A DNA stretch of 47,676 nucleotides from Syntrophales bacterium (GCA_023230905.1 JALNWL010000001.1:1-47676); one strand, 5' to 3'; numbered from the stretch's first letter, positions 2,264 through 20,541 are shown. Program-made: numbers and translations. The notes: generated by a model not told the origin, from the sequence alone.

Positions 2264-3301
2264 ATGACCCTTTTCGCACCGCTCATCGCCATCGCCCTCC
2301 TGATCGCCCTCCCCCTCGCGGGACTGGCGGCGAGCGGGGAAGGTTTGCTGGCCGTCGGCGTCCCCTACGCGGCCCTGGCGGTGCTCGTCGTCGGATTCGT
2401 CCGGCGCATCGCCCGCTGGGCGAACGCGCCCGTCCCCTTCCGCATCCCCACGACGGCGGGGCAGGGGCGCTCGCTCGACGGGATCAAACCGGACCGCCTC
2501 GACAACCCCGCGACGACCTGGGGCGTCCTCGGCCGGATGGCGCTTGAAATCCTCTGTTTCCGGTCGCTCTTCCGGAACACGAAACAACGCCTGGCGCCTC
2601 CGGCGCGGGCGGAAAGCGCCGGGGACAAAGCGGCGGCCACGGCCCGACCCGTTTATGTCAGCGCCAAGGGCCTGTGGTTCTTCGCGCTGCTCTTTCACGG
2701 GTCGCTTCTGGTGATCGTGCTCCGGCACCTGCGCTTCTTTCTCACGCCGGTCCCGACCTGGGTCGACGGCCTGATCGCGCTCGACGGCCTCTTCGCCGTC
2801 GGCCTCCCGACCGCCTACCTGTCCGACGCGGCGCTTCTCGCGGCCCTCTTGTTCCTGCTTCTCCGGCGGGTCCTGATCCAGCAGGTTCGCTACATCACGC
2901 TGGCGGCGGATTATTTTCCGCTGTTGTTGATCGGCGCAATCGCCGTTTCCGGCCTCCTGCTGCGGCATGCCTTCAAGGTCGATCTCAACCAGGTGAAGGC
3001 GCTCGCGGTGGGCTGGGCCACCTTTTCCCCGGCGGTCCCGGCGGAAACAGAGGCGTTCTTCTTCGTCCATCTCTTCCTGGTGTGCGCCCTGGCCGCCTAT
3101 CTCCCGTTCGGAAAACTCATGCATGGGGCGGGCGTTTTCCTGAGCCCCACCCGGAACCTCGCCAACGACAACCGGCGGCGGCGTCACGTGAACCCCTGGA
3201 ACGCGCCGGTGAAGGTGCATCCCTACGAAGAATACGAGGACGAATTCCGGGGCAAGATGAAGGCGGCGGGCATCCCCGTCGAGCGGGAGGAAGGATCATG
3301 A
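2264..3301 (+). CDS. dsrM: DsrM, membrane quinol-interacting subunit of DsrMKJOP
   Basis: Multi-helix NarI-like membrane protein with GAAGGAA RBS before ATG 2264. Sits first in a canonical M-K-J-O-P gene order. Confidence 0.8.
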   Translation: MTLFAPLIAIALLIALPLAGLAASGEGLLAVGVPYAALAVLVVGFVRRIARWANAPVPFRIPTTAGQGRSLDGIKPDRLDNPATTWGVLGRMALEILCFRSLFRNTKQRLAPPARAESAGDKAAATARPVYVSAKGLWFFALLFHGSLLVIVLRHLRFFLTPVPTWVDGLIALDGLFAVGLPTAYLSDAALLAALLFLLLRRVLIQQVRYITLAADYFPLLLIGAIAVSGLLLRHAFKVDLNQVKALAVGWATFSPAVPAETEAFFFVHLFLVCALAAYLPFGKLMHGAGVFLSPTRNLANDNRRRRHVNPWNAPVKVHPYEEYEDEFRGKMKAAGIPVEREEGS

Positions 3302-3373
3302 GACGGTTAGACTCCCGTTTCGCGAAGGGCGAAACGGAGACTTCCCGCAGAAATATCGACAGGACGTGCAACC

Positions 3374-5011
3374 ATGGCAATCGATAAACTTCCGACGCCC
3401 GAAGAACTGAGCCATATCGACTACCGGCCTCCCGGAACCGGATGGCGGAACACCCCGGTGGATTTCCGTCCGGGGACCTGGTGCTACAGCGCCACCCCGA
3501 AAAGCCTGACCACCCTGGATCTCCCCAATCCCCGGCAGTGGCAGCCGTCGGACGCGGACTGGAAGCTCCCTGAGAACTGGCGAACAATCATCCTCGATGG
3601 CATGCGGGAGCGCCTGGAGAAGTACCGGTCGTTCCGGCTCTTCATGGACATCTGCGTCCGCTGTGGGGCCTGTGCGGACAAGTGCCACTTCTACATCGGG
3701 ACGGGAGATCCGAAGAACATGCCGATCCTGAGGGCGGAACTGATCCGGAGCGTCTACCGCCGCTACTTCACGACGGCCGGGCGCATCCTCGGCCCTCTCG
3801 CCGGGGCGCGGGACCTGACCGAGGACGTCCTGAAGGAGTGGTTCTACTACTTCTACCAGTGCACGGAGTGCCGCCGCTGCTCCGTCTTCTGCCCCTACGG
3901 CATCGACCAGGCGGAGATCACGATGATCGGCCGGGAGCTTCTGACCCTCGTCGGCTGCAACATCAACTGGGTCCTCGAACCGGCGGCGAACTGCTTTCGG
4001 ACGGGGAACCACCTGGGCATCCCGCCCCACGGGATCAGGGATATGCTCGACTTCCTCGTCGACGATATCAAGGACCGCACGGGCGTCCGCGTGGAGGTCC
4101 CCCTGAACCGGAAGGGCGCCGAGATCCTCTTCGTCACGCCGTCGGGGGACTACTTTGCCGACCCGGGCACCTACACCTGCATGGGCTACCTGATGCTCTT
4201 CCACGAGCTTGGTCTCGACTACACGATGAGCACCTACGCCTCCGAAGGGGGAAATTTCGGCCTGTTCACCTCCCACGAGATGATCAAGCGCTTAAACGCC
4301 AAGATCTACGCCGAGGCGAAGCGCCTGGGCGTGAAGTGGATCCTGGGCGGCGAGTGCGGCCACATGTGGCGGGTCGTCCACCAGTACATGGACACGATGA
4401 ACGGCCCGGCCGATTTCCTCGAGGTCCCCGTCTCGCCCATCACGGGAACGCGGTTCGAAAACGCCGCCGGGACGAAGATGGTCCACATCGCCGAGTTCAC
4501 GGCCGACCTGATCCAAAACGGAAAACTCAGGCTCGACCCCGCCCGGAACGACCACCTGAGGGTCACCTTCCACGACTCGTGCAACCCCGCGCGGGCAATG
4601 GGCCTCCTGGAGGAGCCGCGCACGATTATCCGGCATGCCTGCAACCATTTCTTCGAGATGCCGGAAGATACGATCCGTGAAAAGACCCTCTGCTGCGGTG
4701 GCGGGGCGGGACTGGGAACGGACGAGAACATGGAGATGCGGATGCGCGGGGGCTACCCCCGGGCGATGGCGGTGAAACATGTCCGGGAACGGCACGGCGT
4801 GAACCGCTTGGCCTGCATGTGCGCCATCGACCGGGTAACGCTACCGCCCCTGATGGATTACTGGGTCCCCGGGGTCGGGGTCACGGGCGTGCACGAGCTC
4901 TTGGGCAATGCCCTGATCCTGACGGGAGAAAAGCAACGGACGACGGACCTGCGGGGAGAGCCCCTCCTCCGGGCGTCGCATGCGGACGGGGTACACGAAG
5001 CGAAGGGATGA
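3374..5011 (+). CDS. dsrK: DsrK, HdrD-like catalytic Fe-S subunit of DsrMKJOP
   Basis: CVRCGACADKCH and CTECRRCSVFCPYG cluster motifs plus CCGGGAGLG CCG motif. About 545 aa, located between dsrM and dsrJ. Confidence 0.85.
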   Translation: MAIDKLPTPEELSHIDYRPPGTGWRNTPVDFRPGTWCYSATPKSLTTLDLPNPRQWQPSDADWKLPENWRTIILDGMRERLEKYRSFRLFMDICVRCGACADKCHFYIGTGDPKNMPILRAELIRSVYRRYFTTAGRILGPLAGARDLTEDVLKEWFYYFYQCTECRRCSVFCPYGIDQAEITMIGRELLTLVGCNINWVLEPAANCFRTGNHLGIPPHGIRDMLDFLVDDIKDRTGVRVEVPLNRKGAEILFVTPSGDYFADPGTYTCMGYLMLFHELGLDYTMSTYASEGGNFGLFTSHEMIKRLNAKIYAEAKRLGVKWILGGECGHMWRVVHQYMDTMNGPADFLEVPVSPITGTRFENAAGTKMVHIAEFTADLIQNGKLRLDPARNDHLRVTFHDSCNPARAMGLLEEPRTIIRHACNHFFEMPEDTIREKTLCCGGGAGLGTDENMEMRMRGGYPRAMAVKHVRERHGVNRLACMCAIDRVTLPPLMDYWVPGVGVTGVHELLGNALILTGEKQRTTDLRGEPLLRASHADGVHEAKG

Positions 5012-5072
5012 AGCGGCGGGGCGAGGCGGACCCGTTCGGGGGCGCCTGCCGCCGGGAGAGGATCATCGGACC

Positions 5073-5579
5073 ATGAAGGGAACGGATCGCTGGAAAATCT
5101 TTGCGGGGTTGTTCGTCTTCCTCGCGCTCGCCGCCCTGCCCTTCTGGTACGGCGGGTGGGACAGGCCGGCGCCGGTCCTCGATCTCGACACCCCGGCCAT
5201 CCGGCAACTGCCGGAAAGGCGATGCGTCGAGGCCACCGCGTTCATGCGGGCGAACCACATGACGCTGCTGGCCGACTGGCGGGACGCCTCGACCCGGGAC
5301 GGGCGGCGGATCTACGTCGCGCGGGACGGGCGGGAAATCGAGGCGAGCCTGTCTCAGACGTGCCTGCGCTGCCACACCGACAAGACCCGCTTCTGCGACC
5401 GCTGTCACGACGACGCGGGCGTGAGTCCCACCTGCTGGGACTGCCACGTCGTCCCGGAGGACCGGCGTGAATCGGCGACGGTCACGCACAGGCAGAGGGG
5501 GGAAGGGGGGGACGTGTCCCCGTTCCCCGTTGACGTTGCCGCACGGGAAAAAGAAAGCCGGGGACCTGGTCCCCGATGA
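5073..5579 (+). CDS. dsrJ: DsrJ, triheme periplasmic cytochrome c
   Basis: N-terminal membrane anchor and exactly three CXXCH motifs (CLRCH, CDRCH, CWDCH). Has the RRCVEATAFMRANHM segment expected for the His/Cys-ligated haem. GGGAGAGG RBS before ATG 5073; the longer track ORF starting at 4980 is not needed. Confidence 0.8.
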   Translation: MKGTDRWKIFAGLFVFLALAALPFWYGGWDRPAPVLDLDTPAIRQLPERRCVEATAFMRANHMTLLADWRDASTRDGRRIYVARDGREIEASLSQTCLRCHTDKTRFCDRCHDDAGVSPTCWDCHVVPEDRRESATVTHRQRGEGGDVSPFPVDVAAREKESRGPGPR

Positions 5580-5603
5580 AACTTGCATGCAGGGACAGAG
5601 GTT

Positions 5604-6383
5604 ATGCACAGTAGCCGCAGAGACTTTTTGAAACTGACGGGCATTGCCCTGATCGGCGCCGCCGTCCCCGACGCGCTGCTTCCGGCCGGGCTTGCGCCGG
5701 CATGGGCGGGAGCACCCGGCTTCCGCCCGGATGTCCGCGCGCTCAAGGCCGCGCGCTGGGGGATGGTCATCGACCTCGCGAAATGCCGCCCGGACTGCAC
5801 GGACTGCATCGCCGCCTGCCACGCGGCCCACAACGTCCCCGCTTTCGGCAATCCGAAGGACGAGATCGCCTGGATCCGCCGGGAGACCTTCGGTCGGATC
5901 TTCCCCGCGCAGGTCCACAGGCACCTCGAACCCCGGCGTCAGGCGGGGCCGGTGATCGCCCTGTGCAACCACTGCGCGAATCCGCCCTGCGTCCGCGTCT
6001 GCCCCACGGGGGCGACCTTTCGGCGGCCCGACGGAATCGTCATGATGGACTACCACCGGTGCATCGGCTGCCGTTTCTGCATCGCGGCCTGCCCCTACGG
6101 CGCCCGCGGCATGAACTATCGCGATCCCCGGCCGTTCATCCGCCGCATCGATCCCGGGTTCCCGACGCGAACGAGGGGCGTCGTGGAGAAGTGCAATTTC
6201 TGTGTGGAGCGGCTGGCCGTGGGAAAGCCGCCCGCGTGCGTCGCGGCCTGTCCCTACGGCGCCCTGACTTTCGGCGACCTGGAGGCGCCCGACTCCGCGG
6301 TGCGGCGCGCAATCGCCGGAAGAACGGTCCTCCGGCGTAAACCGGAACTGGGCACGGAGCCCCAAGTTTATTATACGTTATAA
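5604..6383 (+). CDS. dsrO: DsrO, Tat-exported 4Fe-4S ferredoxin-like subunit
   Basis: Twin-arginine signal SRRDFLK and several CxxCxxCxxxCP motifs (CIGCRFCIAACP, CNFCVERL...CVAACP). ATG 5604 is preceded by AGAGG; the track start 5583 is a TTG. Confidence 0.85.
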   Translation: MHSSRRDFLKLTGIALIGAAVPDALLPAGLAPAWAGAPGFRPDVRALKAARWGMVIDLAKCRPDCTDCIAACHAAHNVPAFGNPKDEIAWIRRETFGRIFPAQVHRHLEPRRQAGPVIALCNHCANPPCVRVCPTGATFRRPDGIVMMDYHRCIGCRFCIAACPYGARGMNYRDPRPFIRRIDPGFPTRTRGVVEKCNFCVERLAVGKPPACVAACPYGALTFGDLEAPDSAVRRAIAGRTVLRRKPELGTEPQVYYTL

Positions 6384-6404
6384 GATGAGGAACCGGGGGA
6401 TGAC

Positions 6405-7562
6405 ATGCTAGAGAAGGCCCTGCACGGAAATCACCGCTACTGGGGATGGCTCGCGTTCCTCGCCGTCGTCGTCGGCGCGGGCGCGTTTTTCTACCTCCGG
6501 CAGCTCGACTACGGCCTGGGCATCACGGGGATGAGCCGGGACGTCACCTGGGGGCTCTACATCGCCCAGTTCACGTTTCTGGTCGGGATCGCCGCCTCGG
6601 CCGTCATGGTCGTCCTGCCCTATTACCTCCACGACTACAAGGCGTTCGGCCGGATCACGATCCTGGGCGAATTCCTCGCGGTCGCCGCCGTCGTCATGTG
6701 CGTGACCTTCATCGTCATCGACCTCGGCCGGCCTGAACGCGCCTTCAACGTCCTGCTGCACCCTGCCCCCCGCTCTATCCTCTTCTGGGACATGGTCGTC
6801 CTGACGGGCTACCTCGTGCTCAACCTCGTTATCGGCTGGACGGTCCTGGAGAACGAGCGCAACGGCAAGGCGCCGCCCGCCTGGGTCAAGCCCCTGATCC
6901 TGCTTTCGATCCCCTGGGCGATCAGTATTCATACGGTCACGGCCTTCATCTACGCCGGCCTGCCGGGACGGGACTTCTGGCTGACGGCCATCATGGCCCC
7001 CCGCTTTCTCGCCTCCGCCTTCGCCTCGGGGCCTGCGCTGCTCGTGCTCCTCTGCCTCGTTCTGCGGCGCTGGGGCGGCTTCGACGCGGGCCGCGAGCCG
7101 CTCCAGGCGCTGGCCCGGATCATCGCCTACGCCTTGGCGGCGAGCCTCTTCTTCGTCCTCATGGAGCTCTTCACGGCCTTCTACAGCGGCATCCCCGGCC
7201 ACACGGAACCGTTCCGCTACCTCTACGCCGGTCTGGACGGGCACACGCGGCTTGTCCCGTGGATGTGGACCTCGGCCGTCCTGGCGGTCCTGGCCCTCGT
7301 GCTCCTGATCGTTCCGGCGCTGCGGCGCAACGAAGCCTGGCTCGCCCTGGCCTGCCTGGCCGTCTTCGCCTCGCTGTGGATCGAAAAAGGGCTGGGGCTT
7401 GTCGTCACGGGGTTCATCCCCTCCCCCCTGGGCCAGATCACCGAATACACGCCCACCGGCCCCGAGGTCGCGATCACGCTGGGCGTCTGGGCGCTGGGAT
7501 TCGTCATCCTGACGGCCCTCTACAGGATCGCCCTGGGCGTCAGGAAGGAAACGGAGGCATAG
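6405..7562 (+). CDS. dsrP: DsrP, NrfD/PsrC-like integral membrane subunit
   Basis: About 10 hydrophobic helices, NrfD-like size, located directly after dsrO. Confidence 0.8.
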   Translation: MLEKALHGNHRYWGWLAFLAVVVGAGAFFYLRQLDYGLGITGMSRDVTWGLYIAQFTFLVGIAASAVMVVLPYYLHDYKAFGRITILGEFLAVAAVVMCVTFIVIDLGRPERAFNVLLHPAPRSILFWDMVVLTGYLVLNLVIGWTVLENERNGKAPPAWVKPLILLSIPWAISIHTVTAFIYAGLPGRDFWLTAIMAPRFLASAFASGPALLVLLCLVLRRWGGFDAGREPLQALARIIAYALAASLFFVLMELFTAFYSGIPGHTEPFRYLYAGLDGHTRLVPWMWTSAVLAVLALVLLIVPALRRNEAWLALACLAVFASLWIEKGLGLVVTGFIPSPLGQITEYTPTGPEVAITLGVWALGFVILTALYRIALGVRKETEA

Positions 7563-7568: not shown

Positions 7569-8771
7569 ATGAAGACCCTCTACGTCGAGACCACGCCCGC
7601 CCGCTTCCTCGCCGTCAAGACCCTCCGCGGGCTCTGGCCGGGCGTGCTGTGGAGCCGCCTGTCCACGCTCCAGTATCGGGAGATGACGCCGACCGCCCCG
7701 CCGGCCGGCTGGGTCCACGTGAAAAATCACCAAGGCGGAATCTGCGGAAGCGATCTGCACCTGATCTTCCTCGACGCCGATCTGAGCGTCCACCCGGCCC
7801 TCCTGCCGGGCAGCACACGCAAGTACCTGGGGCACGAACTCGTGGGGCACGTCCTGGAAGCACCCCCGGACAGCGGCTTCAAGCCCGGCGACCGGGTCAT
7901 CCGGCAGATGCGCACCGGCGGCGGCTCCTGCCTGGCGCATGGCCTCGCCCCCTGCGGTTTCTGCCGGGCGGGTCAGTATCACCAATGCGAGCGAACGGGA
8001 CTCCCGGATTCCATCGGCGGGGGACTGAGCGACGAGCTTTACCTCCCCGCCGGGGGCCTGATGGCGGTCCCCGACGATCTCGCGGACGCGCAGGCGGTTC
8101 TGGTCGAGCCGGCGGCCTGCGCCATCCACGGGGTTCTGCGCGCACCGCCCAATCCCGGGGAGGCGGTCCTCGTCTACGGGGCGGGCACGATCGCCTATTT
8201 CGTCCTGCAGGTCCTCCGAATCGTCCTTCCGGACTGCCGGATCACGGCGATCGCCGAATTCCCCTTTCAGGAAGACATGGCCCGGCGGTGCGGGGCGGAC
8301 GAGGTCTGGCTGGCGCACGACGATCTCCTCGCCAGGACCGCGGCGCGGACGGGGGGGCGGGTCGTCACCGGCCGGGCAAACCGCCGGACCCTCCTGGGCG
8401 GCTTCGACCGGATCTACGACTGCGTGGGTGTCGCCGCGACCCTCGGGCTCTCCCTGCGCCTCGCGCGGGCGCGCGGCACCGTCATCCTGATCGGCGTTAC
8501 CCTCAAACCCCTGACGCTGGACATGACGCCGGTGTGGTACAATGAGGTGAACCTGGTGGGCAGCGTCTCCTTCGCCGCCGAAGCGTGGCGAGGGGAGCGG
8601 ATCCGGGACTTCGATCTCGCCATCCGCTGGATGCGGGAGGGGCGGCTGAAGACGGAGGGGTTCGCCACGCACCGCTTCCCGCTGGAACGGTACCGGGAGG
8701 CGATCCTGGCCGCCGTGCGGAAGGCGTCCAGCCGCTCCGTGAAAGTGGTGCTGGAGATGGAGAAGAGCTGA
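7569..8771 (+). CDS. Zn-dependent alcohol dehydrogenase (MDR superfamily), substrate unknown
   Basis: GICGSDLH and GHE catalytic Zn motifs, structural Zn Cys cluster [20 protein letters not shown], and VYGAGTIA nucleotide fold. Starts only 6 nt after the dsrP stop. Confidence 0.8.
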
Positions 8772-8861
8772 GGGCGAACGGTCAACGGCGTAAAGCGAAG
8801 GGAACGGACCAAGGCGCAGGTCAAGCGACCCCGGGGAAAAGATTTGAATACAAAAATGGCC

Positions 8862-10073
8862 ATGAAGATTCTGGTTCTCAACTGCGGAGGCTCGTCGGTG
8901 AAGTACAAGCTCTACGACATGGAAAGCGGCCGGGTGGTGGCGCTCGGCTTTGCGGAACGGATCGGCCTGGCGGGCTCCGGGATCCGTCATCAGGCGGAGG
9001 GCGCGGCGGCCGTTTCCTTCGAACACACCCTGCGGGATCACCGGGAAGCGCTGGAAATCCTACTCGGGATGCGGCCCGGCGGTCCGCGTGCGGGCAGCAT
9101 CGACCCCGCGGCGATCACGGCCATCGGTCACCGGGTGGTCCACGGCGGCGAATATTTCCGGACCCCCGTGATCATCGACGACGCGGTCCTCGTCAATCTG
9201 AAGGCGTGCAGCACGCTGGCCCCTCTCCACAACCCCCACAACCTGGCGGGAATCGAGGTCTGCCGGAAACTGCTGACGGAGGTGCCGCAGGTGGCCGTCT
9301 TCGACACGGCCTTCCACCAGACCATGCCCCCCCTGGCCTACACATACGCGATCCCGCATCGTTACTACGACACCTACCGGATCCGCAAATACGGCTTCCA
9401 CGGCACCTCCCACCGCTACGTGGCCGAGCGCGCCGCCGAACTCGCGGGCCGTCCCCTGGCGGAGCTGAAGATCGTAACCTGCCACCTCGGGGCGGGGTGC
9501 AGCCTCTGCGCCGTCCGCGACGGGCACTCCATCGATACGACGATGGGCTTCACGCCGCTCGCGGGTGTCGTCATGGGAACCCGCTCGGGGGACATCGATC
9601 CCGCCCTCGTCCCGTTCATCGCCGACAAGGAAGGCCTGCCGCCCGCCGCCGTTATGGACATCCTGAACTCCGAAAGCGGGGTTTTCGGGATCTCCGGGAT
9701 CTCCGGCGATTTCCGGGATCTCCTGAAGGCCGCGCGGGAGGGGAACGAACGGGCGACACTCGCCCTGGACGTCTTCACGTACAGCATCGCCAAGGGGATC
9801 GGTTCGCTCCTGCCGGCCCTGGAGGGACTCGACGCCCTCGTTTTCACGGCCGGCATCGGCGAGAACTCGCCCGACATCCGCAGGCTGATCTGCCGGCGTC
9901 TGGCATATTTCGGCATCACGCTGGACGATGGGAAGAATGCCCTTGCCCGAACGGAAACGGACGTCGCGACGACGGAGAGCCGGGTCAGGATCTACGTCAT
10001 CCCGACGGACGAGGAGCGCATGATCGCCCGGGAAACGCGGAAGCTCATCGATCCTGGGCGGGGACCCGGCTGA
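8862..10073 (+). CDS. ackA: acetate kinase
   Basis: Canonical N-terminus [18 protein letters not shown], with HRVVHGG and GFHGTSH motifs. The track start 8844 is a TTG; ATG 8862 gives the usual length of about 403 aa. Confidence 0.9.
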
Positions 10074-10159
10074 AGGGCGGCAGCGGCAGCATCCCCCGCC
10101 GGGGAATCAAAGGGGTCAACCGGACAACGAACGAAATTCAACGCAATGGAGGTATCAAC

Positions 10160-11914
10160 ATGGCCAAGATCAAAATGACGCCCAGTGAGGCGATTGTGGA
10201 AACCCTGCTCGCCGAAGGCGTGGATCACGTCACCGGCATCGTCGGGAGCGCCTTTATGGACATGCTCGATCTCTTCCCCACGGCGGGGATCCGTTTCATC
10301 CCCGTTCGGCACGAGCAGAGCGCGGGGCACATGGAGGACGCCTACGCCCGGATCACCGGCCGGGCCGGGGTTCTCACGGGTCAGAACGGACCGGGGATCA
10401 CGAACATGGTCACCTCGGTCGCGGCGGCCAACATGGGCCATACGCCGCTCGTCATCATCTCCCCGTCGGCCGGGACGCCGACCATCGGCTGGGACGGTTT
10501 CCAGGAGTGCGACCAGGTCTCCGTCTTCAAGGCCATCACGAAGGCCACGGTCCGCGTGCCCCATCCCAAGCGGGCGGCCGACTGCCTGCGGACCGCCTTC
10601 CGGATCGCGTACGCCGACCGTGGGGCGGTCCTGTACGACATCCCCCGGGACTACTTCTACGGCGAGTTGGAAGAGGAGATCCTTCCGCCCCACCGCTACC
10701 GCGTGGACGCCCGGGGCTGCGGATCGCTCGCCGACATCGAGCGGGCGGCGAAGCTCCTCATGAACGCGAAGAACCCCGTCATCGTCTCCGGACGGGGGGT
10801 CGTGGACGCGGACGCCCTGGACGTGATCAAGGCCATTGCCGAGCACCTGACCGCGCCGGTCGCCGTGACCTATCTGCACAACGACGCCTTCTACGGGGAC
10901 CACCCCCTGTTCGTCGGCCCCATCGGGTACATGGGCTCCAAGGCGGCAATGCGGACCCTGGCCAAGGCGGACGTGATGCTCGCCGTGGGAACGCGCCTGT
11001 CGGTCTTCGGCACCCTGCCCCAGTACGACATCAACTACTTCCCGAAGAAGGCGAAGATCGTCCAGGTGGACATCAACCCGAAACACATCGCCCGGACGCA
11101 CCCCGTCGAGATCGGCATCATCGGGGACGCGAAGGAGGCCGCGGTGGAGATCCTGAAGCGCCTCCGGACCGCGGACAAGCGGCGGAAGCCGGATACGGCG
11201 CGCCTGGGGAAAATCGCCGCGGAGAGGAAAAAATGGGAGCAGGAGATCGTCCGGTTGGCGAGGGTCAAGGGAACGCCGATCAACCCCCGCCGCGTCCTTT
11301 TGGAGATGTCGCGGATGATGCCGGACAACGCCATCCTGACGACGGACATCGGCAACGTGTCCTCGACCGCCAACAGCTACTTCACCTTCAAGGGCGGCCG
11401 GCGCCACATCGCGGCACTCACCTTCGGCAACACGGGCTTCGCCTACCCGGCGGCCCTGGGCGCCCAGCTCGCCCGCCCCAAGGCGCCGGTCGTCGCCATC
11501 ATCGGCGACGGGGCCTGGGGGATGAGCCTCCACGAGATCAGCACCGCCGTGGAGCACAACCTGCCGGTCATCGCCTGCGTCTTCAGGAACATGTGGTGGG
11601 GCGCCGAGGCGAAGAACCAGGTGGACTTCTACAACAACCGCTTCATCGGGGTCGACATCCCGAACCCCGCGAGCTTCATCCCGGCGGCGGAGGCCCTGGG
11701 CGCCCGCGGCATCCGCGTGGAGCATCCGGACCAGATCGGGGAGGCCTTCAAATCGGCCCTCAAGATCCGCCGGCCCACCGTCCTGGAGTTTGTCGTGGAC
11801 GGCCGGCAGCTCGCCCCGCCCTTCCGGAAGGACGCCCTGGCGCTGCCCACGCGGCTCCTGCCGAAGTACGCCCACCTGGACCACCACAACTGGCGGACGG
11901 ACTACGACATGTAG
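10160..11914 (+). CDS. xsc: sulfoacetaldehyde acetyltransferase (Xsc)-like thiamine-diphosphate enzyme
   Basis: GGAGGT RBS then ATG 10160, 584 aa. TPP fold (GDGAWGM). Xsc-like blocks as I remember them: MTPSEA..VETL N-terminus, [35 protein letters not shown]. The 1109-aa track ORF is a composite. Confidence 0.75.
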
Positions 11915-11932
11915 CCCCCTCCCGAAACAAGG

Positions 11933-11974
11933 CCGCGGACCCGGCGGGGGTTGTTCCCCCGATCGGGTCCGCGG
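11933..11974 (+). terminator. strong GC hairpin after xsc (terminator-like, no clear U-tract)
   Basis: CCGCGGACCCG (11933-11943) pairs with CGGGTCCGCGG (11964-11974), with an inner GGGGG-TTGTT-CCCCC. Begins 18 nt after the xsc stop. Confidence 0.5.
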
Positions 11975-12280
11975 ATGCTTCCCGCCCCAGCGGCTGCGGC
12001 ACAGGCACCGGCTCCACGCTTCGGGTCGATAGGGTCACGTTCACTTGCCTGCGGGAAGAAGCGCCGCTCGAAGCCCCCGTGACGGTATGATCCCTGCAGC
12101 AAATGACCCAACGAAAAGATTGAATTGACATCCGGGGCGGGCTTCCCTATAGTGCCGCCGTCCACAGCCGAGACGTCGCCCTTCCGGGGAGGGTCCCGTT
12201 TTTCAGTGCAACGTCGCCATCACTGCAGATACGGCCTTTCGATCAACCCGAGACCCTCCGCCCCATGGAAAGGAATGCGC

Positions 12281-12823
12281 ATGTTGTATGAATTCGACGG
12301 CAGAACCCCACAGGTCGCCGACGGCGCCTATGTCAGCGACACCGCTACGGTGATCGGCGACGTCGTGATCGGCCCCCATTGTTACATCGGTCACGGCGCC
12401 ATCCTGCGGGGGGACTACGGCCGGATTGAGATCGGTCCGGGAACGGCAGTGGAGGAGGGCGTCATCATCCATGCCCCGCCGGAACGGGTCTGCCGGATCG
12501 GTGAAAAGGTCACCCTGGGACACGGGGCGGTCATTCACGGCCAGAGGCTCGGAGATTGCTCCGTCGTCGGCATGGGTGCGGTTTTGAGCATCCTCTCCGA
12601 GATCGGCGAATGGACCATCGTGGCGGAGGGGGCCGTTGTCAAGATCGGCCAGGCGATCCCGGATGGGATGGTCGCCGTGGGGAACCCGGCGGCCGTCGTT
12701 CGCGAGATCGCCGACCGGGACCGGGAGATGTGGAGCTGGGGCAAGCAGATCTACATCGATCTTGCGGAGAAATACCTGCGGGTCGGCCTTCATCCCGTTG
12801 CTCCGGACGGGCGGAACGGATAA
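12281..12823 (+). CDS. gamma-carbonic-anhydrase-like / hexapeptide-repeat (CaiE/PaaY/YrdA family) protein
   Basis: Left-handed beta-helix repeats (VIGDVVIGPHCYIGHGAILRGD...). GGAAAGGA RBS before ATG 12275/12281. Confidence 0.8.
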   Translation: MLYEFDGRTPQVADGAYVSDTATVIGDVVIGPHCYIGHGAILRGDYGRIEIGPGTAVEEGVIIHAPPERVCRIGEKVTLGHGAVIHGQRLGDCSVVGMGAVLSILSEIGEWTIVAEGAVVKIGQAIPDGMVAVGNPAAVVREIADRDREMWSWGKQIYIDLAEKYLRVGLHPVAPDGRNG

Positions 12824-12898
12824 CGAGGCCCGCCCCTCTCGGGATGACGATGAAGCGAACGCGACTTCGTTTCGGCAGAAGACTTGGAGACGACCGTT

Positions 12899-14377
12899 TC
12901 AGCCCCTCGGGAGCCCGGCGAGCCGTTCCTTTAACTCATTCGCAATATCGCTCATTTCTGCGCGGCCAAATAGATTATTCATCTCTCCCGGATCGCTTTT
13001 CAGATCAAAAAGCCAAGGACGTCTGCCGCGTTCAAACTCAATGTATTTGAAATTTTCGGTACGAATGCCCCGGTATGATGGCGTGTTTTCCGGGTAATAG
13101 CGCCAGAATTCAAGAAGGCAGGCCTCTCTGGTTTTCCCGCGGGGGTTCCCGAGAACAGGGGCAAGGCTGATACCGTCCATATCTCCGGGAACCTCAAGGC
13201 CCGCCAGGTCAAGCATCGTCGGGGCAACGTCAATATTCAAGATCATCTGATGTCTCCTTCCCCCGGGGTCATGAATGATGACGGGTGCCCTCACGATAAA
13301 AGGAAGGCGGATTGAATCCTCATAGGGTTCGCGAATTCCGTGGCAATGATGGGTTCCCCACTGCATGCCATTGTCACCCATGTATACCACGATGGTTTTC
13401 TCGCTCAGGTTGTGCCGGTCCAGATAATCGAGAATTCGGACGATATCCCGATCCATGGCGGTAAGGGTTTCGCAGTAGCGTCGATACTGATCCTCATAGG
13501 AGCCCATCATGATGCCCTGGAAGACATTCCCCCTCGTTTTCCCAAACCATATCGGGTCGACGTTCGGCGGAAGCACCCGGCTCACATCCGCGTCATGATA
13601 CATTCCAGCAATGTCCGCGGGCGCCTGAAAGGGCGGATGACCGGGCCGGTGCGCGAGATAGACGCAGAAGGGTCTGCCGTCATTTCGCGATCTCTGCTGG
13701 TCAATAAACTCGATCGCGTAATCCGTCACTTCCTCGGTGATATAGGGCTTGCGGGAAGGCACTTCGCGGCCATTGACAATCATCGGGCAGTTGAAGTAGG
13801 CACCCTGCCCCTCGCGATAGGTGTAGGCCACAAAAAGATCAAGAAAGGGGAGATGGGGCAAGCCGCCGGGCATGTGCCACTTCCCGATGAATGCCGTGGC
13901 GTATCCCTCACGACTCAGATATTCCGGGAAGGTCGTGAACCTGCCTGTCCAAGCGGTATGATTGTTCCTGACGCCATGCCGGTGGGCATAGGCCCCCGTC
14001 AGAATGCTGGCGCGGGAGGGGCTGCACAGAGCGGTGGTATTGAAGGCCTGCTCGAAAAGAACCCCTTCCCGGGCCAGCCTGTCCATTCCCGGGGTTTGAA
14101 TGAAGGGATGATGCGCACAGCCCATTGTTTTTGCGTTATGATTATCGCCGAGGATAAACAGGATATTGGGCCTGTTACCACCCCGCCTGCCGCGAGATCG
14201 CACAAGGGGGATGCCCGCCTTCGCTTTTTCACCCAAGGGTCGTTCCGTGGCACCGAGCCTATCTCCCAGCAGGCCGTATGCCGCATATCCCGCAAAGCCG
14301 GCCCCGAGGACTCTTCCTCCGGCCTTCAAAAGATCCCGTCTGGTTAAAACAGGGCGTTTATTTTCTCTGTTCATCAT
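12899..14377 (-). CDS. Tat-exported Cys-type sulfatase (arylsulfatase family)
   Basis: Twin-arginine signal TRRDLLKAGG and formylglycine motif CSPSRASILTG. Sulfatase-type N-terminal block NILFILGDNH. Confidence 0.85.
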   Translation of the reverse strand: MMNRENKRPVLTRRDLLKAGGRVLGAGFAGYAAYGLLGDRLGATERPLGEKAKAGIPLVRSRGRRGGNRPNILFILGDNHNAKTMGCAHHPFIQTPGMDRLAREGVLFEQAFNTTALCSPSRASILTGAYAHRHGVRNNHTAWTGRFTTFPEYLSREGYATAFIGKWHMPGGLPHLPFLDLFVAYTYREGQGAYFNCPMIVNGREVPSRKPYITEEVTDYAIEFIDQQRSRNDGRPFCVYLAHRPGHPPFQAPADIAGMYHDADVSRVLPPNVDPIWFGKTRGNVFQGIMMGSYEDQYRRYCETLTAMDRDIVRILDYLDRHNLSEKTIVVYMGDNGMQWGTHHCHGIREPYEDSIRLPFIVRAPVIIHDPGGRRHQMILNIDVAPTMLDLAGLEVPGDMDGISLAPVLGNPRGKTREACLLEFWRYYPENTPSYRGIRTENFKYIEFERGRRPWLFDLKSDPGEMNNLFGRAEMSDIANELKERLAGLPRG

Positions 14378-14418
14378 CGTCCCCCGCCGAGCGGCTTGCG
14401 GGTTGCTCCACGTTGTTC

Positions 14419-14982
14419 CTACAAGCCGCTTCCAAAAAAGAACCGGTATCCTTCAAGAAAGATCACATAGATATTTTCGCCCCTGCCCCAGGCGTACATC
14501 AGGGCAAAGACCGTGAGGCTCCCGGCAATGATCAGCGCGGGAACTCTCATGGAGTATGCCTTTTCATTCCTTTGGATGCGGATCTTTCTTACAATGAGCG
14601 CCGCGACACCTAACTCGGCACACATCAGGACAAAAAGCCAGATGCTCAGAGGGCTGAGATACCAGTAAAGGCATTCAAGGACGGGGTGGGATTCCGTCAG
14701 GATGAGCACTTCCTTTGTAATCCACGCAAAAGGTGTGACAAATGAAGCCAGGACACTCTCCGCCAAAGAGGCCCCCCGAAGCTGGGAAACCGTATAGACA
14801 TACAAAGCCCCGAAGGAAATCGAGACAAAATAGAAAAAGCCTGAAAGAGTCGCAACAACGAGGGTGAATGTTGTCCGGTCGGGAAACCTCAGGAAAAAGT
14901 AAACTGCGAACGAAAGCAGGGCCGCAACAAAAACGGGCAAGACCGGCATCCCTACGCGCAAAATAAATGATTTCCGTCCCAT
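14419..14982 (-). CDS. hypothetical polytopic membrane protein (co-directional with the sulfatase)
   Basis: Five to six hydrophobic helices and no recognised motif. ATG 14982 is chosen here; the track ORF extends to a GTG at 15063. Confidence 0.5.
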   Translation of the reverse strand: MGRKSFILRVGMPVLPVFVAALLSFAVYFFLRFPDRTTFTLVVATLSGFFYFVSISFGALYVYTVSQLRGASLAESVLASFVTPFAWITKEVLILTESHPVLECLYWYLSPLSIWLFVLMCAELGVAALIVRKIRIQRNEKAYSMRVPALIIAGSLTVFALMYAWGRGENIYVIFLEGYRFFFGSGL

Positions 14983-15230
14983 CGCCTCACCATCCCAATC
15001 GGAAACTCTCTTCACATTGATTTGCGGCGTCCATATAAGCTTATCGGCACGAGATGAAGTCACGTCGTTTATATTTCCGGGACTTCCGGCGGAAGAAAGC
15101 GGGTGGAGGAAGTCCCGCGGTCATACACAAACGGACACGGTTGATACCGAGACGGCGGAAGGAATGACGTTAAGTTTACCATGGACAGGCGAAGAAGGCC
15201 AGCGCGATTGTCGAGGCGGATAAAATCTTC

Positions 15231-15259
15231 TTGACACACACAAGAGACCCGAATACACT
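15231..15259 (+). promoter_or_regulatory. candidate sigma-70 promoter for the PLP-enzyme operon
   Basis: TTGACA (15231-15236), 17-nt spacer, TACACT (15254-15259), about 70 nt upstream of the CDS. Confidence 0.35.
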
Positions 15260-15328
15260 CCACTCTACACGAGTGAAATTCTTATCCATCCTTGGCTTTC
15301 CACCGCATGATGAATATGTGTTCATTTT

Positions 15329-16690
15329 ATGAATCGGGATTCATTGAATGAGGGAATGGGGATGATACAGATCGCACTTCCCAACAAGGGCGCTTCGCGC
15401 GATGGGGTGATGAGGGAGCTCAAGGCCCTGCATTCCGCGGACAACGATTGGCGGACGGGGCGGATGTTCAGCCTCATCTACAACGCCGGGGCCGATGTGG
15501 AATCGGTCGCCCGGGAGGCCTACGCCGAGTACATGGTGGAGAACGCGCTGAGCCCCTTCTCCTTCCCAAGCCTCCTCAAGATGGAGACGGAGTTGCTCTC
15601 CATGATCGCCACGCTCTTTCACGGGGAGACGGCCGTGGGCAGCATGACCTCGGGCGGATCGGAGAGCATCCTGATGGCGGTGAAGACCGCGCGGGAATGG
15701 GCGCGCGCGAAGCGGCCGGGGATCTCCTCCCCCGAGCTGGTCATGCCGGTCACCGCCCACCCGGCGTTCAACAAGGCGGCCCACTTCCTGGGGATCAGGG
15801 CGGTGGCGGTCCGCGTCGATGGCGGATTCCGCGCGAGCGTCCCGGACATGATCGGCGCGGTCACGGAGAACACCATCATGATGGTGGGGAGCGCCTTCAC
15901 CTATCCCCACGGCATGATCGATCCCATCGGCGAGCTTTCCGGCTTCGCGCTTGAAAACAACATCTGGTTCCACACCGACGCCTGCCTGGGAGGGTTCATG
16001 ATTCCCTTCCTCGAAATGGAGGGATACCCGGTGCGCCCCTTCGACTTCAGGCTTCCCGGCGTCAAGTCGATCTCGGCCGACATCCACAAGTACGGATACA
16101 CCCCGAAGGGGGCGTCGACGGTCACCTATCGCGACATGGATCTCAGGGAGTTCCAATTCTTCGCGTACGCGGACTGGCCCGGCGGTGTGTACGGGACGGC
16201 CTGCGTCTCCGGCGCTCGCCCCGGGGGGGCCATCTCCTCCGCATGGGCCGTGATGCGCTACCTCGGCCAAGAGGGGTTCCGCGGGCTTGCGTCGAAGGCC
16301 ATGAGGGCCGCCAAGCGTCTCAGGGCGGGTATCGAGGCGATTCCCGGCCTCCATGTTCTCGGGAACCCCGACGGGACCGTCTTCGCTTTCGGGAGCGACG
16401 GGTTGAACGTCTACGACCTGCGCGACGCCCTCAAGCGGCGGAACTGGCACGTGGAGAGCCAGCACCTCCCGCCCTGCCTGCACCTTACCGTCTGCCCCGT
16501 CCACGAGGAGGTCGTGGACGCGTTCCTCGAGGATCTCGCGGAGGCCTGCGGCGAGGCGGCTTCCGTGAGCGAGAACGACAGGACCGAAGACGCGGTGCTC
16601 TACGGGGTGATGGGGACCATCCCCGACAGGAGTCAGGCCCTGGATCTGGCGGTAAAATACCTCAACGACCTGTACAGGATCAAGCCATAA
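15329..16690 (+). CDS. PLP-dependent group II decarboxylase/lyase, sphingosine-1-phosphate-lyase-like
   Basis: PLP-lysine block SISADIHKYGYTPKGAS closely resembles the SPL-type motif SISADTHKYGF.PKG. No N-terminal TM segment. The true start may be ATG 15362. Confidence 0.7.
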   Translation: MNRDSLNEGMGMIQIALPNKGASRDGVMRELKALHSADNDWRTGRMFSLIYNAGADVESVAREAYAEYMVENALSPFSFPSLLKMETELLSMIATLFHGETAVGSMTSGGSESILMAVKTAREWARAKRPGISSPELVMPVTAHPAFNKAAHFLGIRAVAVRVDGGFRASVPDMIGAVTENTIMMVGSAFTYPHGMIDPIGELSGFALENNIWFHTDACLGGFMIPFLEMEGYPVRPFDFRLPGVKSISADIHKYGYTPKGASTVTYRDMDLREFQFFAYADWPGGVYGTACVSGARPGGAISSAWAVMRYLGQEGFRGLASKAMRAAKRLRAGIEAIPGLHVLGNPDGTVFAFGSDGLNVYDLRDALKRRNWHVESQHLPPCLHLTVCPVHEEVVDAFLEDLAEACGEAASVSENDRTEDAVLYGVMGTIPDRSQALDLAVKYLNDLYRIKP

Positions 16691-16698
16691 CGCACGAA

Positions 16699-17418: not shown

Positions 17419-17458
17419 CCCGCGGCGGCGCTCCGAAGACCTTCAACCAGGAGGCGCC

Positions 17459-20488: not shown

Positions 20489-20494
20489 GATCTG

Positions 20495-20535: not shown

Positions 20536-20541
20536 ACCGTT

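What the first reader, a model, noticed from the sequence alone, without database searches (positions are those of the whole stretch)
7569..11974. Desulfonation module: Zn-ADH, acetate kinase and an Xsc-like enzyme, with ackA rather than pta next to xsc
Xsc cleaves sulfoacetaldehyde with phosphate into acetyl phosphate and sulfite (established for the family). Here the gene immediately upstream is acetate kinase, which would convert the acetyl phosphate directly into ATP. That is an energy-conserving fermentative/respiratory layout, rather than the pta-linked assimilatory layout I know from aerobes. No taurine aminotransferase or isethionate lyase is present. The only candidate source of sulfoacetaldehyde is the MDR-type Zn-ADH at 7569-8771, which is a different enzyme class from the isethionate or sulfoacetaldehyde oxidoreductases I am aware of (SDR, Fe-ADH, cytochrome-linked). 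It may therefore be a new isethionate (or other hydroxy-sulfonate) dehydrogenase.
Basis: partly seen in the sequence, partly recalled or inferred. Interest (0 to 1): 0.7.

Follow-up and report, generated by a model that had tools for sequence, protein, structure and literature searches.

The report
Sulfonate-respiration operon with an uncharacterised zinc dehydrogenase
A Syntrophales bacterium carries one gene string joining its sulfite-respiration membrane complex (DsrMKJOP) to a true sulfoacetaldehyde-cleaving enzyme (Xsc), acetate kinase and a zinc alcohol dehydrogenase of an unstudied family that turns up in sulfonate gene clusters across three phyla; the ATP-yielding logic is already known, but this dehydrogenase family has never been characterised.

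Summary
ADH (7569-8771), AckA (8844-10073) and a 584-aa TPP enzyme (10160-11914) lie head to tail.

The TPP enzyme is a bona fide Xsc: TIGR03457 scores 834 bits against a cut-off of 676, and it is 78% identical to the Xsc of a canonical tauABC-ald-tpa-xsc cluster.

The trio begins 6 bp after dsrP, the last gene of a complete dsrMKJOP set. Related Syntrophales carry dsrMKJOP-ackA-xsc without the ADH.

Coupling Xsc to AckA and sulfite respiration is established biology (Desulfonispora, Taurinivorans muris), so that part of the finding is not new.

The ADH is the open question:
- It belongs to no known isethionate or sulfoacetaldehyde oxidoreductase family.
- It is a distinct roughly 400-aa MDR clade with relatives in 435 genome stretches.
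- Elsewhere it sits in a conserved module with a sphingosine-1-phosphate-lyase-like PLP enzyme, a second non-Xsc TPP enzyme, an MFS transporter, a TauE permease and an SDR or 3HCDH dehydrogenase.
- In Firmicutes that module lies next to, or in line with, tpa-xsc.

An isethionate/sulfoacetaldehyde role is the simplest reading (about 0.45) but is unproven.

Verdict: new variant of a known kind; interest moderate.

The parts
44..2232 (+). NarI-like membrane protein (44-622) and a DsrK/HdrD-like paralogue (619-2232) upstream of dsrMKJOP
   Evidence: Pfam Nitrate_red_gam scores 21.9 bits, just below threshold. The DsrK model scores 340 bits, below its 400-bit cut-off. The same pair precedes dsrMKJOP in L087 and L088.
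2264..7562 (+). dsrM (2264-3301), dsrK (3374-5011), dsrJ (4980-5579), dsrO (5583-6383), dsrP (6405-7562): the membrane complex that feeds electrons to DsrC/DsrAB sulfite reduction
   Evidence: All five pass their NCBIfam equivalog cut-offs: DsrM 434/300, DsrK 741/400, DsrJ 143/100, DsrO 295/200, DsrP 485/350.
7569..8771 (+). 400-aa Zn-dependent MDR alcohol dehydrogenase of an uncharacterised clade; proposed isethionate/sulfoacetaldehyde (or other hydroxy-sulfonate) oxidoreductase
   Evidence: Pfam ADH_N plus ADH_zinc_N. The best NCBIfam score is only 92 bits and no model passes its cut-off. Identity to any solved structure is at most 25%, while the fold is modelled at pLDDT 90. Zn ligands are invariant. 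It starts 6 bp after dsrP. dN/dS against L007/L008 is 0.18. The gene is conserved in L007, L008, L095 and L096.
8844..10073 (+). acetate kinase AckA (acetyl phosphate + ADP -> acetate + ATP)
   Evidence: TIGR00016 470 bits against a cut-off of 293; Pfam PF00871 467 bits.
10160..11914 (+). sulfoacetaldehyde acetyltransferase Xsc (sulfoacetaldehyde + Pi -> acetyl phosphate + sulfite), TPP-dependent
   Evidence: TIGR03457 equivalog 834 bits against a cut-off of 676; acetolactate synthase models reach at most 398 bits, below their cut-offs. Three TPP domains are present. It is 78% identical to the Desulforamulus ruminis Xsc in a GntR-tauABC-ald-tpa-xsc cluster. A GGAGG ribosome-binding site precedes the ATG.
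11933..11974 (+). G+C-rich hairpin closing the gene string (terminator or RNA-stabilising stem)
   Evidence: -47.6 kcal/mol, z = -3.7, and 0 of 200 shuffles fold as well. It lies inside the block syntenic with L007/L008, which ends at 11993.
11994..18655 (.). 6.6-kb strain-specific island: gamma-carbonic-anhydrase/PaaY-like gene (12275-12823), Tat-signal sulfatase (12899-14377, - strand), SPL-like PLP enzyme (15329-16690), DUF819 membrane protein (17459-18634). Association with the operon is possible but unproven.
   Evidence: Absent from L007, L008 and L095, which are otherwise 92-96% identical in DNA. GC is 0.57-0.59 against 0.67 in the operon. A sigma-70-like promoter lies at 12125-12153. 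The SPL-like protein scores 363 bits against S. thermophilum S1P lyase. It is 48% identical to the PLP enzyme that accompanies ADH homologues elsewhere.

Best explanation
The finding is the tail of a single co-directional gene string, (dsrM2K2)-dsrMKJOP-adh-ackA-xsc, in a Syntrophales bacterium. It serves respiration of a C2 sulfonate.

Steps that rest on family assignments:
- Xsc adds thiamine diphosphate to sulfoacetaldehyde, expels sulfite and releases the acetyl group to phosphate as acetyl phosphate.
- AckA converts acetyl phosphate and ADP into acetate and ATP (substrate-level phosphorylation).
- The sulfite is the electron acceptor of DsrAB/DsrC, which DsrMKJOP re-reduces from the quinone pool.

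Inferred step: the Zn-MDR dehydrogenase interconverts isethionate and sulfoacetaldehyde with NAD(H). This supplies Xsc from isethionate, or buffers the reactive aldehyde. It yields 2 of the 6 electrons needed per sulfite; the rest come from the organism's own substrate oxidation or from H2/formate. The window protein has Glu230 at the end of strand beta-2, which suggests NAD rather than NADP. This is a weak inference.
For: Xsc, AckA and all five Dsr subunits pass curated equivalog or subfamily cut-offs.

Spacing indicates co-transcription: dsrP to adh is 6 bp with the ribosome-binding site inside dsrP, adh to ackA about 72 bp, ackA to xsc 86 bp. A strong hairpin follows xsc only.

The dsrMKJOP-...-xsc linkage recurs in three Syntrophales variants:
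- L088: dsrMKJOP-ackA-xsc.
- L087: dsrMKJOP-CoADR/rhodanese-xsc-SDR-TPP2-MFS-ADH'.
- The window lineage: dsrMKJOP-adh-ackA-xsc, seen in L007, L008, L095 and L096.

The Xsc-AckA-Dsr route is experimentally supported in Taurinivorans muris (PMC10507020).

For the ADH:
- It is intact and under purifying selection (dN/dS 0.18, like its neighbours).
- In this lineage no other module gene lies in the gene string with it, so its product or substrate should connect directly to Xsc.
- The same ADH clade lies immediately downstream of a TauE/SafE permease in 21 Chloroflexota loci by ORF clustering, and TauE is found in 28 loci by tblastn. This resembles the isfD-isfE reductase-exporter cluster (PMC6616044).
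- In Bacillota locus L013 it heads a co-directional array ending in tpa-xsc. In Desulfovirgula it abuts an ackA-tauR-ald-tpa-xsc-tauABC cluster.
- A TDH-like Zn-MDR (PbfG) was recently shown to oxidise 2-hydroxyethylphosphonate, the phosphonate analogue of isethionate (PMC13576164).
Against: - There is no biochemical evidence for any substrate.
- No isethionate transporter (TRAP, IseU-type or TauE) sits in the operon.
- The nearest ADH relatives (56-63% identity) always occur with an SPL-like PLP enzyme, a second TPP enzyme, an MFS transporter and a 3HCDH. This suggests a longer pathway in which the ADH need not act on isethionate.
- The Cys/His/Glu(/Glu) zinc signature and the best fold matches (sorbitol, threonine and butanediol dehydrogenases) are typical of secondary-alcohol or beta-hydroxy-amine oxidation rather than primary-alcohol oxidation.
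- PbfG shows only trace activity on isethionate, and the NCBIfam phosphonate-associated ADH model scores only 46 bits here.
- dsrAB and dsrC were not seen, because they lie outside the window. Sulfite respiration by this organism is therefore inferred.
Confidence: 0.45

Rival explanations
1. The ADH acts on a different hydroxy-sulfonate as one step of the larger conserved SPL-like/TPP2/MFS pathway. Candidates are DHPS at C2 or C3, sulfolactate, or the 3-OH of a 2-amino-3-hydroxy-1-sulfonate such as cysteinolate or a capnine-type base. In the window lineage it would work with partners encoded elsewhere, or with the SPL-like gene on the island. Xsc and AckA would still do the final desulfonation.
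For: In 80 ADH-family loci the commonest neighbours are a non-Xsc TPP enzyme (32 loci), an MFS transporter (31), TauE (21), an SDR (21) and the SPL-like enzyme (20), nearly all on the ADH strand. The closest relatives, P0002-P0013, all sit in [3HCDH-MFS-SPL]<->[TPP2-IclR-ADH]. The window itself carries an SPL-like gene 48% identical to those. The zinc-ligand pattern and fold neighbours are of the polyol/threonine-dehydrogenase type.
Against: In L007, L008 and L095 the SPL-like island is absent, yet the ADH is kept intact under purifying selection next to ackA-xsc. No TPP2 lies within 10 kb in these loci, nor anywhere in the 47.7-kb window. A multi-step partner set elsewhere in the genome is possible but was not seen.
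Confidence: 0.28
2. The ADH works mainly in the reductive direction, as a sulfoacetaldehyde reductase like IsfD, SarD or TauF. It would act as a redox valve or aldehyde detoxifier that makes isethionate, while sulfoacetaldehyde comes from taurine or another source encoded elsewhere.
For: All characterised sulfoacetaldehyde/isethionate enzymes of the M-ADH type strongly favour reduction: BkTauF has a kcat/KM of 4.6e4 for sulfoacetaldehyde against 2.2e2 M-1 s-1 for isethionate. The TauE-ADH adjacency in Chloroflexota looks like the reductase-plus-exporter cluster.
Against: The window operon has no exporter. Reduction would compete with Xsc for the substrate that yields ATP and the electron acceptor. 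Glu230 at the cofactor site suggests NAD rather than NADPH (weak).
Confidence: 0.12
3. The ADH has nothing to do with sulfonates. It would be a general alcohol, polyol or threonine dehydrogenase that feeds electrons to sulfite respiration and happens to lie between dsrP and ackA.
For: Only generic MDR similarity is detectable. About 40% of well-flanked family loci show none of the module genes.
Against: Four independent context links to sulfonate genes exist in three phyla: TauE; tpa-xsc in L013 and L090; Xsc within 4-9 kb in L011 and L013; and dsr-ackA-xsc here. The gene is also tightly coupled within the operon.
Confidence: 0.12
4. The TPP enzyme is not Xsc but an acetolactate synthase or oxalyl-CoA decarboxylase relative.
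For: The domain architecture is shared with those enzymes, and no Xsc structure exists in the PDB for comparison.
Against: The Xsc equivalog model scores 834 bits against a cut-off of 676. The best ALS model scores 398 against 538. It is 78-80% identical to Xsc genes in canonical taurine clusters.
Confidence: 0.03

Closest known systems
Taurinivorans muris taurine respiration (Tpa-Ald-Xsc-AckA with DsrAB/DsrC; PMC10507020)
   Same: Xsc releases sulfite for dissimilatory sulfite reduction, and the acetyl phosphate is turned into ATP by AckA in a Desulfobacterota anaerobe.
   Different: There sulfoacetaldehyde comes from taurine through Tpa. Here no tpa, ald or taurine transporter is in the window, an MDR ADH is present instead, and the genes are physically fused to dsrMKJOP. 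The host is a Syntrophales member, not a Desulfovibrionaceae member.
Desulfonispora thiosulfatigenes taurine fermentation (Denger et al. 2001, as cited in PMC10507020)
   Same: Anaerobic, energy-conserving use of Xsc.
   Different: That is fermentation to thiosulfate in a Firmicute, with taurine as substrate and no Dsr linkage.
Bacillus krulwichiae isethionate pathway, IseD-Xsc (Tong et al. 2019; cited in PMC11423573; details from my own knowledge, paper not readable here)
   Same: A soluble NAD-dependent isethionate dehydrogenase feeds Xsc. This is the mechanism proposed here.
   Different: IseD is a metal-dependent (Fe-ADH type, PF00465) enzyme, the host is aerobic and sulfite is excreted. 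Here the candidate is an MDR (PF08240/PF00107) in a sulfite respirer with AckA.
IsfD/IsfE, SarD and TauF sulfoacetaldehyde reductases (PMC6616044)
   Same: The same proposed substrate pair. The TauE-ADH adjacency in Chloroflexota resembles the isfD-isfE reductase-exporter cluster.
   Different: Those enzymes are of the SDR or M-ADH fold, not MDR. That IsfE is a TauE/DUF81-type permease is from memory and was not checked here.
PbfG, TDH-like Zn-MDR 2-hydroxyethylphosphonate dehydrogenase (PMC13576164, 2026)
   Same: The same superfamily and sub-type (TDH-like, two zinc sites), oxidising a 2-hydroxyethyl-oxyanion to the aldehyde that the C-X cleaving enzyme uses.
   Different: PbfG's catalytic Zn ligands are Cys/His/Cys; here they are Cys/His/Glu(+Glu). 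The phosphonate-associated ADH model TIGR03366 scores 46 bits against a cut-off of 328. PbfG barely touches isethionate.
Bilophila/Desulfovibrio isethionate sulfite-lyase route (IslAB glycyl radical enzyme; PMC6386719, PMC6453916)
   Same: Isethionate serves as the sulfite donor for Dsr-based respiration, with the same net ATP by substrate-level phosphorylation.
   Different: No glycyl radical enzyme or microcompartment genes are present here. C-S cleavage is by the oxygen-tolerant TPP enzyme, at the aldehyde level.

Membership tests
Sulfoacetaldehyde acetyltransferase Xsc (EC 2.3.3.15) | Score above the curated cut-off of the equivalog model TIGR03457, and clearly above sister TPP families | tested here: met
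   834 bits against a cut-off of 676. PRK07525 scores 832 against 620. The best ALS model scores 398 against 538.
Sulfoacetaldehyde acetyltransferase Xsc (EC 2.3.3.15) | Three-domain TPP enzyme with the cofactor-activating Glu and a GDG...N diphosphate-binding motif | tested here: met
   TPP_enzyme_N, M and C domains are present. 'VRHEQS' (Glu52) and '[30 protein letters not shown]' can be read in the translation.
Sulfoacetaldehyde acetyltransferase Xsc (EC 2.3.3.15) | Close homology to Xsc genes in canonical taurine clusters (tauABC-ald-tpa-xsc) | tested here: met
   78% identity to D. ruminis (L089) and 80% to Desulfovirgula (L090); both lie directly after ald-tpa.
Sulfoacetaldehyde acetyltransferase Xsc (EC 2.3.3.15) | Phosphate-dependent formation of acetyl phosphate and sulfite from sulfoacetaldehyde | not testable with these tools
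   Needs an enzyme assay.
Acetate kinase AckA | Full-length match above the cut-off of TIGR00016 and PF00871 | tested here: met
   470 against 293 bits; 467 bits over profile positions 1-392.
DsrMKJOP complex | All five subunits present, in order, each above its NCBIfam equivalog cut-off | tested here: met
   DsrM 434/300, DsrK 741/400, DsrJ 143/100, DsrO 295/200, DsrP 485/350.
DsrMKJOP complex | Partner DsrAB/DsrC in the same genome | not tested
   Not in the 47.7-kb window, and the genome was not available.
Zn-dependent medium-chain dehydrogenase/reductase (polyol/threonine-DH type) | GroES-like and Rossmann domains, catalytic Zn ligands (Cys, His, Glu, Glu) and four structural-Zn cysteines, GxGxxG/A motif | tested here: met
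   PF08240 plus PF00107. C59, H89, E90, E180, C121, C129, C132, C140, G204 and G206 are invariant in 28 sequences. The model has pLDDT 90.4, and fold matches are 1e3j, 2dq4 and 6ie0.
Known isethionate dehydrogenases / sulfoacetaldehyde reductases (IseJ, IseD, IsfD, SarD, TauF) | Homology to one of these families (membrane-bound flavoenzyme, M-ADH PF00465, or SDR) | tested here: not met
   Only MDR domains were found; there are no PF00465 or SDR hits. The families are as listed in PMC6616044 and PMC13474568; the fold type of IseJ is from my own knowledge. The ADH may work like them but is not a member.
Phosphonate-catabolism-associated Zn-ADH (NCBIfam TIGR03366; compare PbfG) | Score above the model cut-off | tested here: not met
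   46 bits against a cut-off of 328.
L-threonine 3-dehydrogenase / sorbitol dehydrogenase equivalogs | Score above the equivalog cut-offs | tested here: not met
   TDH 79 against 380; IolM 86 against 450; L-idonate 5-DH 74 against 469.
Sphingosine-1-phosphate lyase family (for the island gene 15329-16690) | Full-length homology to solved S1P lyases, with the PLP-lysine motif | tested here: met
   363 bits against 5eud/3mad over residues 16-434, with 'SADIHKYGY' aligned to 'SADTHKYGY'. MfnA scores only 125 bits. Substrate specificity was not tested. The His of 'NPLHP' is Ser here; its role in phosphate binding is from memory.

The most novel reading that the evidence does not exclude
The 400-aa MDR clade marks a widespread, uncharacterised organosulfonate pathway present in Chloroflexota, anaerobic Bacillota and Syntrophales. 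A soluble sphingosine-1-phosphate-lyase homologue would cleave a 2-amino-3-hydroxy-1-sulfonate (cysteinolate, or a capnine-type sulfonolipid base) into taurine plus an aldehyde. A new ALS/HACL-like TPP enzyme and the dehydrogenases would process the remaining carbon or a C3 sulfonate. The MDR would be a fifth, non-homologous sulfoacetaldehyde/isethionate (or hydroxy-sulfonate) oxidoreductase. In Syntrophales, fragments of this pathway have been wired directly to dsrMKJOP-ackA-xsc. That would give classical syntrophs a sulfonate-respiring alternative to methanogenic partners.
Probability: 0.25. Interest if true: 0.8.

Novelty: new variant of a known kind. Interest (0 to 1): 0.55.

Why it matters
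Organosulfonates are major sulfur and carbon currencies, and their anaerobic breakdown is a source of H2S.

If the ADH is an isethionate or other hydroxy-sulfonate dehydrogenase, it adds a new enzyme family for annotating sulfonate use. Relatives were found in 435 stretches of a genome collection holding one genome per species. It also provides an oxygen-tolerant, glycyl-radical-free route from isethionate to sulfide.

The physical fusion of dsrMKJOP with ackA-xsc in several Syntrophales suggests that members of an order known for obligate syntrophy can instead dump electrons on sulfonate-derived sulfite. This matters for methanogenic reactors and sediments. It also matters for experiments that use sulfonate inhibitors such as bromoethanesulfonate, which hydrolyses to isethionate (PMC6328780).

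The conserved SPL-like/TPP2 module is a concrete, testable lead to an undescribed pathway.

Tried and rejected
- Sequence-based specificity. NCBIfam, Pfam, PDB sequence search, and an AlphaFold model followed by Foldseek gave only generic polyol/threonine-DH similarity (identity at most 25%). No substrate could be assigned.
- The second TPP enzyme (TPP2) from Firmicutes, Smithella and Chloroflexota was scanned against NCBIfam and the PDB. No model passes its cut-off. The best matches are 'acetolactate synthase PRK05858', 2-hydroxyacyl-CoA lyase and oxalyl-CoA decarboxylase. Its reaction stays unknown.
- The island PLP enzyme first looked like an MfnA-type decarboxylase. That was rejected in favour of S1P-lyase homology (363 against 125 bits).
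- The Smithella MDR ADH next to xsc (L087) is not the same clade, at 25% identity.
- The idea that adh-ackA was acquired as a cassette (AckA is only 59% identical to L088's, against 84% for Xsc) was dropped. Dsr subunits between the same genomes range from 52 to 82%, so 59% is not anomalous.
- Literature searches found nothing on S1P lyase with sulfonates, on novel sulfopyruvate decarboxylases with Xsc, on cysteinolate catabolic enzymes, or on Syntrophales with sulfoacetaldehyde.
- The IseD paper (PMC6643256) is not held.
- The metagenome scan added only two loci of the same lineage.

Full report
OBSERVATION

The window is G+C-rich (0.57-0.68), so many spurious ORFs appear. Third-position GC and family scans pick out one co-directional + strand series:

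| Coordinates | Gene |
|---|---|
| 44-622 | NarI-like protein |
| 619-2232 | DsrK-like paralogue |
| 2264-3301 | dsrM |
| 3374-5011 | dsrK |
| 4980-5579 | dsrJ |
| 5583-6383 | dsrO |
| 6405-7562 | dsrP |
| 7569-8771 | Zn-MDR alcohol dehydrogenase |
| 8844-10073 | ackA |
| 10160-11914 | 584-aa TPP enzyme |

The ADH start lies 6 bp after the dsrP stop, with a GGAGG inside the end of dsrP. A GGAGG also precedes xsc. No promoter-like site falls between dsrM and xsc.

IDENTITY OF THE PARTS

The TPP enzyme passes the Xsc equivalog model TIGR03457 (834 bits, cut-off 676). All acetolactate synthase, pyruvate oxidase and oxalyl-CoA decarboxylase models fall below their cut-offs. No Xsc structure is in the PDB.

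It is 78% identical to the Xsc of Desulforamulus ruminis, which sits in a textbook GntR-tauABC-ald-tpa-xsc cluster. It is 80% identical to the Xsc of a Desulfovirgula MAG in ackA-GntR-ald-tpa-xsc-tauABC.

AckA and all five Dsr subunits pass their curated cut-offs.

The ADH has ADH_N and ADH_zinc_N domains. It also has the full set of catalytic (C59, H89, E90, E180) and structural (C121, C129, C132, C140) zinc ligands. It reaches no curated family: the best score is 92 bits against cut-offs of 376 and above. It is at most 25% identical to any solved structure, even though its fold is modelled with pLDDT 90.

WHAT ELSE IS, AND IS NOT, IN THE WINDOW

There is no taurine aminotransferase (tblastn with a Tpa). 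No ORF is large enough and unassigned to be a glycyl-radical isethionate lyase.

Directly after the xsc hairpin comes a 6.6-kb stretch (11994-18655, GC 0.57-0.59) that is missing from three close relatives otherwise 92-96% identical in DNA (L007, L008, L095). It opens with a near-consensus sigma-70 promoter and carries:
- a gamma-carbonic-anhydrase/PaaY-like gene;
- a Tat-signal sulfatase;
- a PLP enzyme (15329-16690);
- a DUF819 membrane protein.

The PLP enzyme first looked like an MfnA decarboxylase. It is in fact a sphingosine-1-phosphate-lyase homologue: 363 bits against the Symbiobacterium enzyme, against 125 bits for MfnA.

COMPARATIVE CONTEXT OF XSC

Xsc proteins 80-84% identical to the window's are common in Syntrophales and Smithellaceae MAGs.
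- One Syntrophales contig reads dsrMKJOP-ackA-xsc with no ADH (L088).
- A Smithella contig reads dsrMKJOP-[CoA-disulfide-reductase/rhodanese]-xsc-SDR-TPP2-MFS-(another MDR ADH)-TetR (L087).
- The window lineage reads dsrMKJOP-adh-ackA-xsc. This includes a more distant metagenomic member with 85% DNA identity (L096).

Fusion of the sulfite-reduction membrane complex with the sulfite-producing enzyme is therefore a recurrent Syntrophales trait.

The principle itself is already in the literature. It is described for Taurinivorans muris, with Desulfonispora thiosulfatigenes as the older fermentative case (PMC10507020). Co-occurrence of xsc with dsrAB in MAGs has also been noted (PMC12019592). I found no paper that links Syntrophales to xsc. 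Early Smithella drafts were reported to lack dsrAB and dsrMKJOP (PMC4208337).

COMPARATIVE CONTEXT OF THE ADH

The protein search gives one cluster at 95% identity (annotated as a Syntrophales MAG) and then nothing until 63%. The ADH-ackA-xsc layout is therefore confined to one narrow lineage.

The next relatives (56-63% identity; Desulfovirgula, Peptococcaceae and unbinned contigs) all lie in a six-gene module: [3HCDH-type dehydrogenase, MFS, SPL-like PLP enzyme] divergent from [TPP2, IclR, ADH]. TPP2 is only about 30% identical to Xsc and passes no curated model. The PLP enzyme there is 48% identical to the one on the window's island.

A genome scan found 435 relatives. In the 80 best loci the recurrent neighbours are:

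| Neighbour | Loci |
|---|---|
| TPP2 | 32 |
| ATG22-like MFS transporter | 31 |
| TauE/SafE permease | 21 by ORF clustering; 28 by tblastn |
| SDR | 21 |
| SPL-like enzyme | 20 |

In Chloroflexota these typically form the tight operon SPL-TauE-ADH-MFS-TPP2-SDR.

Two Firmicutes loci place a true Xsc (76-78% identity) within 4-9 kb of the ADH module. In L013 the order is TauR-like | ADH-SPL-TPP2-MFS-3HCDH-x-tpa-xsc, all on one strand. In Desulfovirgula the module abuts the taurine cluster.

The ADH clade is thus tied to sulfonate genes in three phyla by four independent kinds of neighbour. The usual partner set is larger than Xsc alone.

MECHANISM

Assigned from family membership:
- Xsc converts sulfoacetaldehyde and phosphate into acetyl phosphate and sulfite.
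- AckA makes ATP from the acetyl phosphate.
- DsrMKJOP serves DsrC/DsrAB sulfite reduction.

Inferred: these run as one transcription unit, and the organism respires the sulfite. dsrAB and dsrC are outside the window.

For the ADH, the simplest reading is isethionate <-> sulfoacetaldehyde, for four reasons:
1. In this lineage it is kept next to ackA-xsc, with no other module gene in the string. It is intact and under purifying selection (dN/dS 0.18, the same range as its neighbours).
2. TauE-ADH adjacency recalls the IsfD-IsfE reductase-exporter cluster.
3. It shares an operon with tpa-xsc in L013.
4. A TDH-like Zn-MDR, PbfG, was shown in 2026 to oxidise the phosphonate analogue of isethionate (PMC13576164).

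Against this reading:
- The zinc-ligand pattern and fold neighbours are those of secondary-alcohol or beta-hydroxy-amine dehydrogenases.
- No isethionate transporter is in the operon.
- The ancestral context implies a longer pathway.

I put about 0.45 on isethionate oxidation feeding Xsc. I put 0.28 on another hydroxy-sulfonate, 0.12 on mainly reductive (detoxifying) sulfoacetaldehyde reduction, 0.12 on no sulfonate role, and 0.03 on the TPP enzyme not being Xsc.

COMPARISON WITH WHAT IS KNOWN, AND NOVELTY

The module works like the T. muris and D. thiosulfatigenes Xsc-AckA routes. If the ADH assignment holds, it also works like the Bacillus krulwichiae IseD-Xsc isethionate route.

The ADH is not a member of any known isethionate or sulfoacetaldehyde oxidoreductase family (IseJ, IseD, IsfD, SarD, TauF), nor of the PbfG-like phosphonate ADH model.

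The energy-conserving logic is already known. Three things appear unreported in the papers I could search:
- the dsrMKJOP-ackA-xsc fusion in Syntrophales;
- the MDR clade;
- the SPL-like/TPP2/TauE module.

Overall this is a new variant of a known kind. The more novel possibility is that the SPL-like enzyme cleaves 2-amino-3-hydroxy-1-sulfonates to taurine within an undescribed pathway. That is chemically coherent and fits the adjacency to tpa-xsc, but it rests on context alone (probability about 0.25).

Noticed in passing
window 27054-27662 (- strand); TGA at 27522-27524: A PrxU-type peroxiredoxin gene is interrupted by an in-frame TGA exactly at the peroxidatic cysteine position ([12 protein letters not shown]), with a small hairpin right after it. 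It is probably a selenocysteine-containing peroxiredoxin. ORF callers report only the C-terminal 135 aa.
   Followed up: partly
window 11994-18655: A 6.6-kb lower-GC island is absent from three relatives with 92-96% DNA identity. It carries a gamma-CA/PaaY-like gene, a Tat-signal sulfatase, an S1P-lyase-like PLP enzyme and a DUF819 membrane protein, and opens with a near-consensus sigma-70 promoter at 12125-12153.
   Followed up: partly
window 20490-22736: A second indel relative to L007/L095 carries an octaheme tetrathionate-reductase-family cytochrome c (20542-22089, TIGR04315 603 bits). It lies next to a molybdopterin oxidoreductase of the PhsA/Fdh type at 22743-24851.
   Followed up: no
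L072 7801-15169; also L029, L044, L045, L083 and others: Chloroflexota carry a tight six-gene operon, SPL-like PLP enzyme - TauE - MDR ADH - ATG22-like MFS - ALS/HACL-like TPP enzyme - SDR. It has no curated family assignment for ADH, TPP2 or the MFS. A weak ceramidase-like gene follows the ADH in 9 other loci.
   Followed up: partly
L013 4622-15987: A Bacillota MAG has a TauR-like regulator followed by ADH-SPL-TPP2-MFS-3HCDH-x-tpa-xsc, all co-directional. The unknown module is embedded in a taurine/sulfoacetaldehyde operon that lacks a taurine ABC transporter.
   Followed up: partly
L087 6215-14880: A Smithella contig has a CoA-disulfide-reductase/rhodanese fusion between dsrP and xsc, followed by SDR-TPP2-MFS and a different MDR ADH. 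This is a second, independent wiring of Xsc plus a TPP2-type module to dsrMKJOP.
   Followed up: partly
window 44-2232: An extra NarI-like/DsrK-like (HdrD-type) pair sits directly upstream of dsrMKJOP. It is conserved in L087 (82% identity for the DsrK-like protein), but the protein at the matching position in L088 is only 32% identical.
   Followed up: no
window 35458-37734 (-) and 35500-36948 (+): The PcnB-type poly(A) polymerase ORF is 758 aa, with about 320 extra N-terminal residues before the PcnB match begins. A long antisense ORF overlaps it. The true start was not determined.
   Followed up: no
window 25948-26748 (-): The pyruvoyl-dependent arginine decarboxylase ORF has about 85 residues ahead of the region matched by the family model, so its start codon is uncertain.
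   Followed up: no
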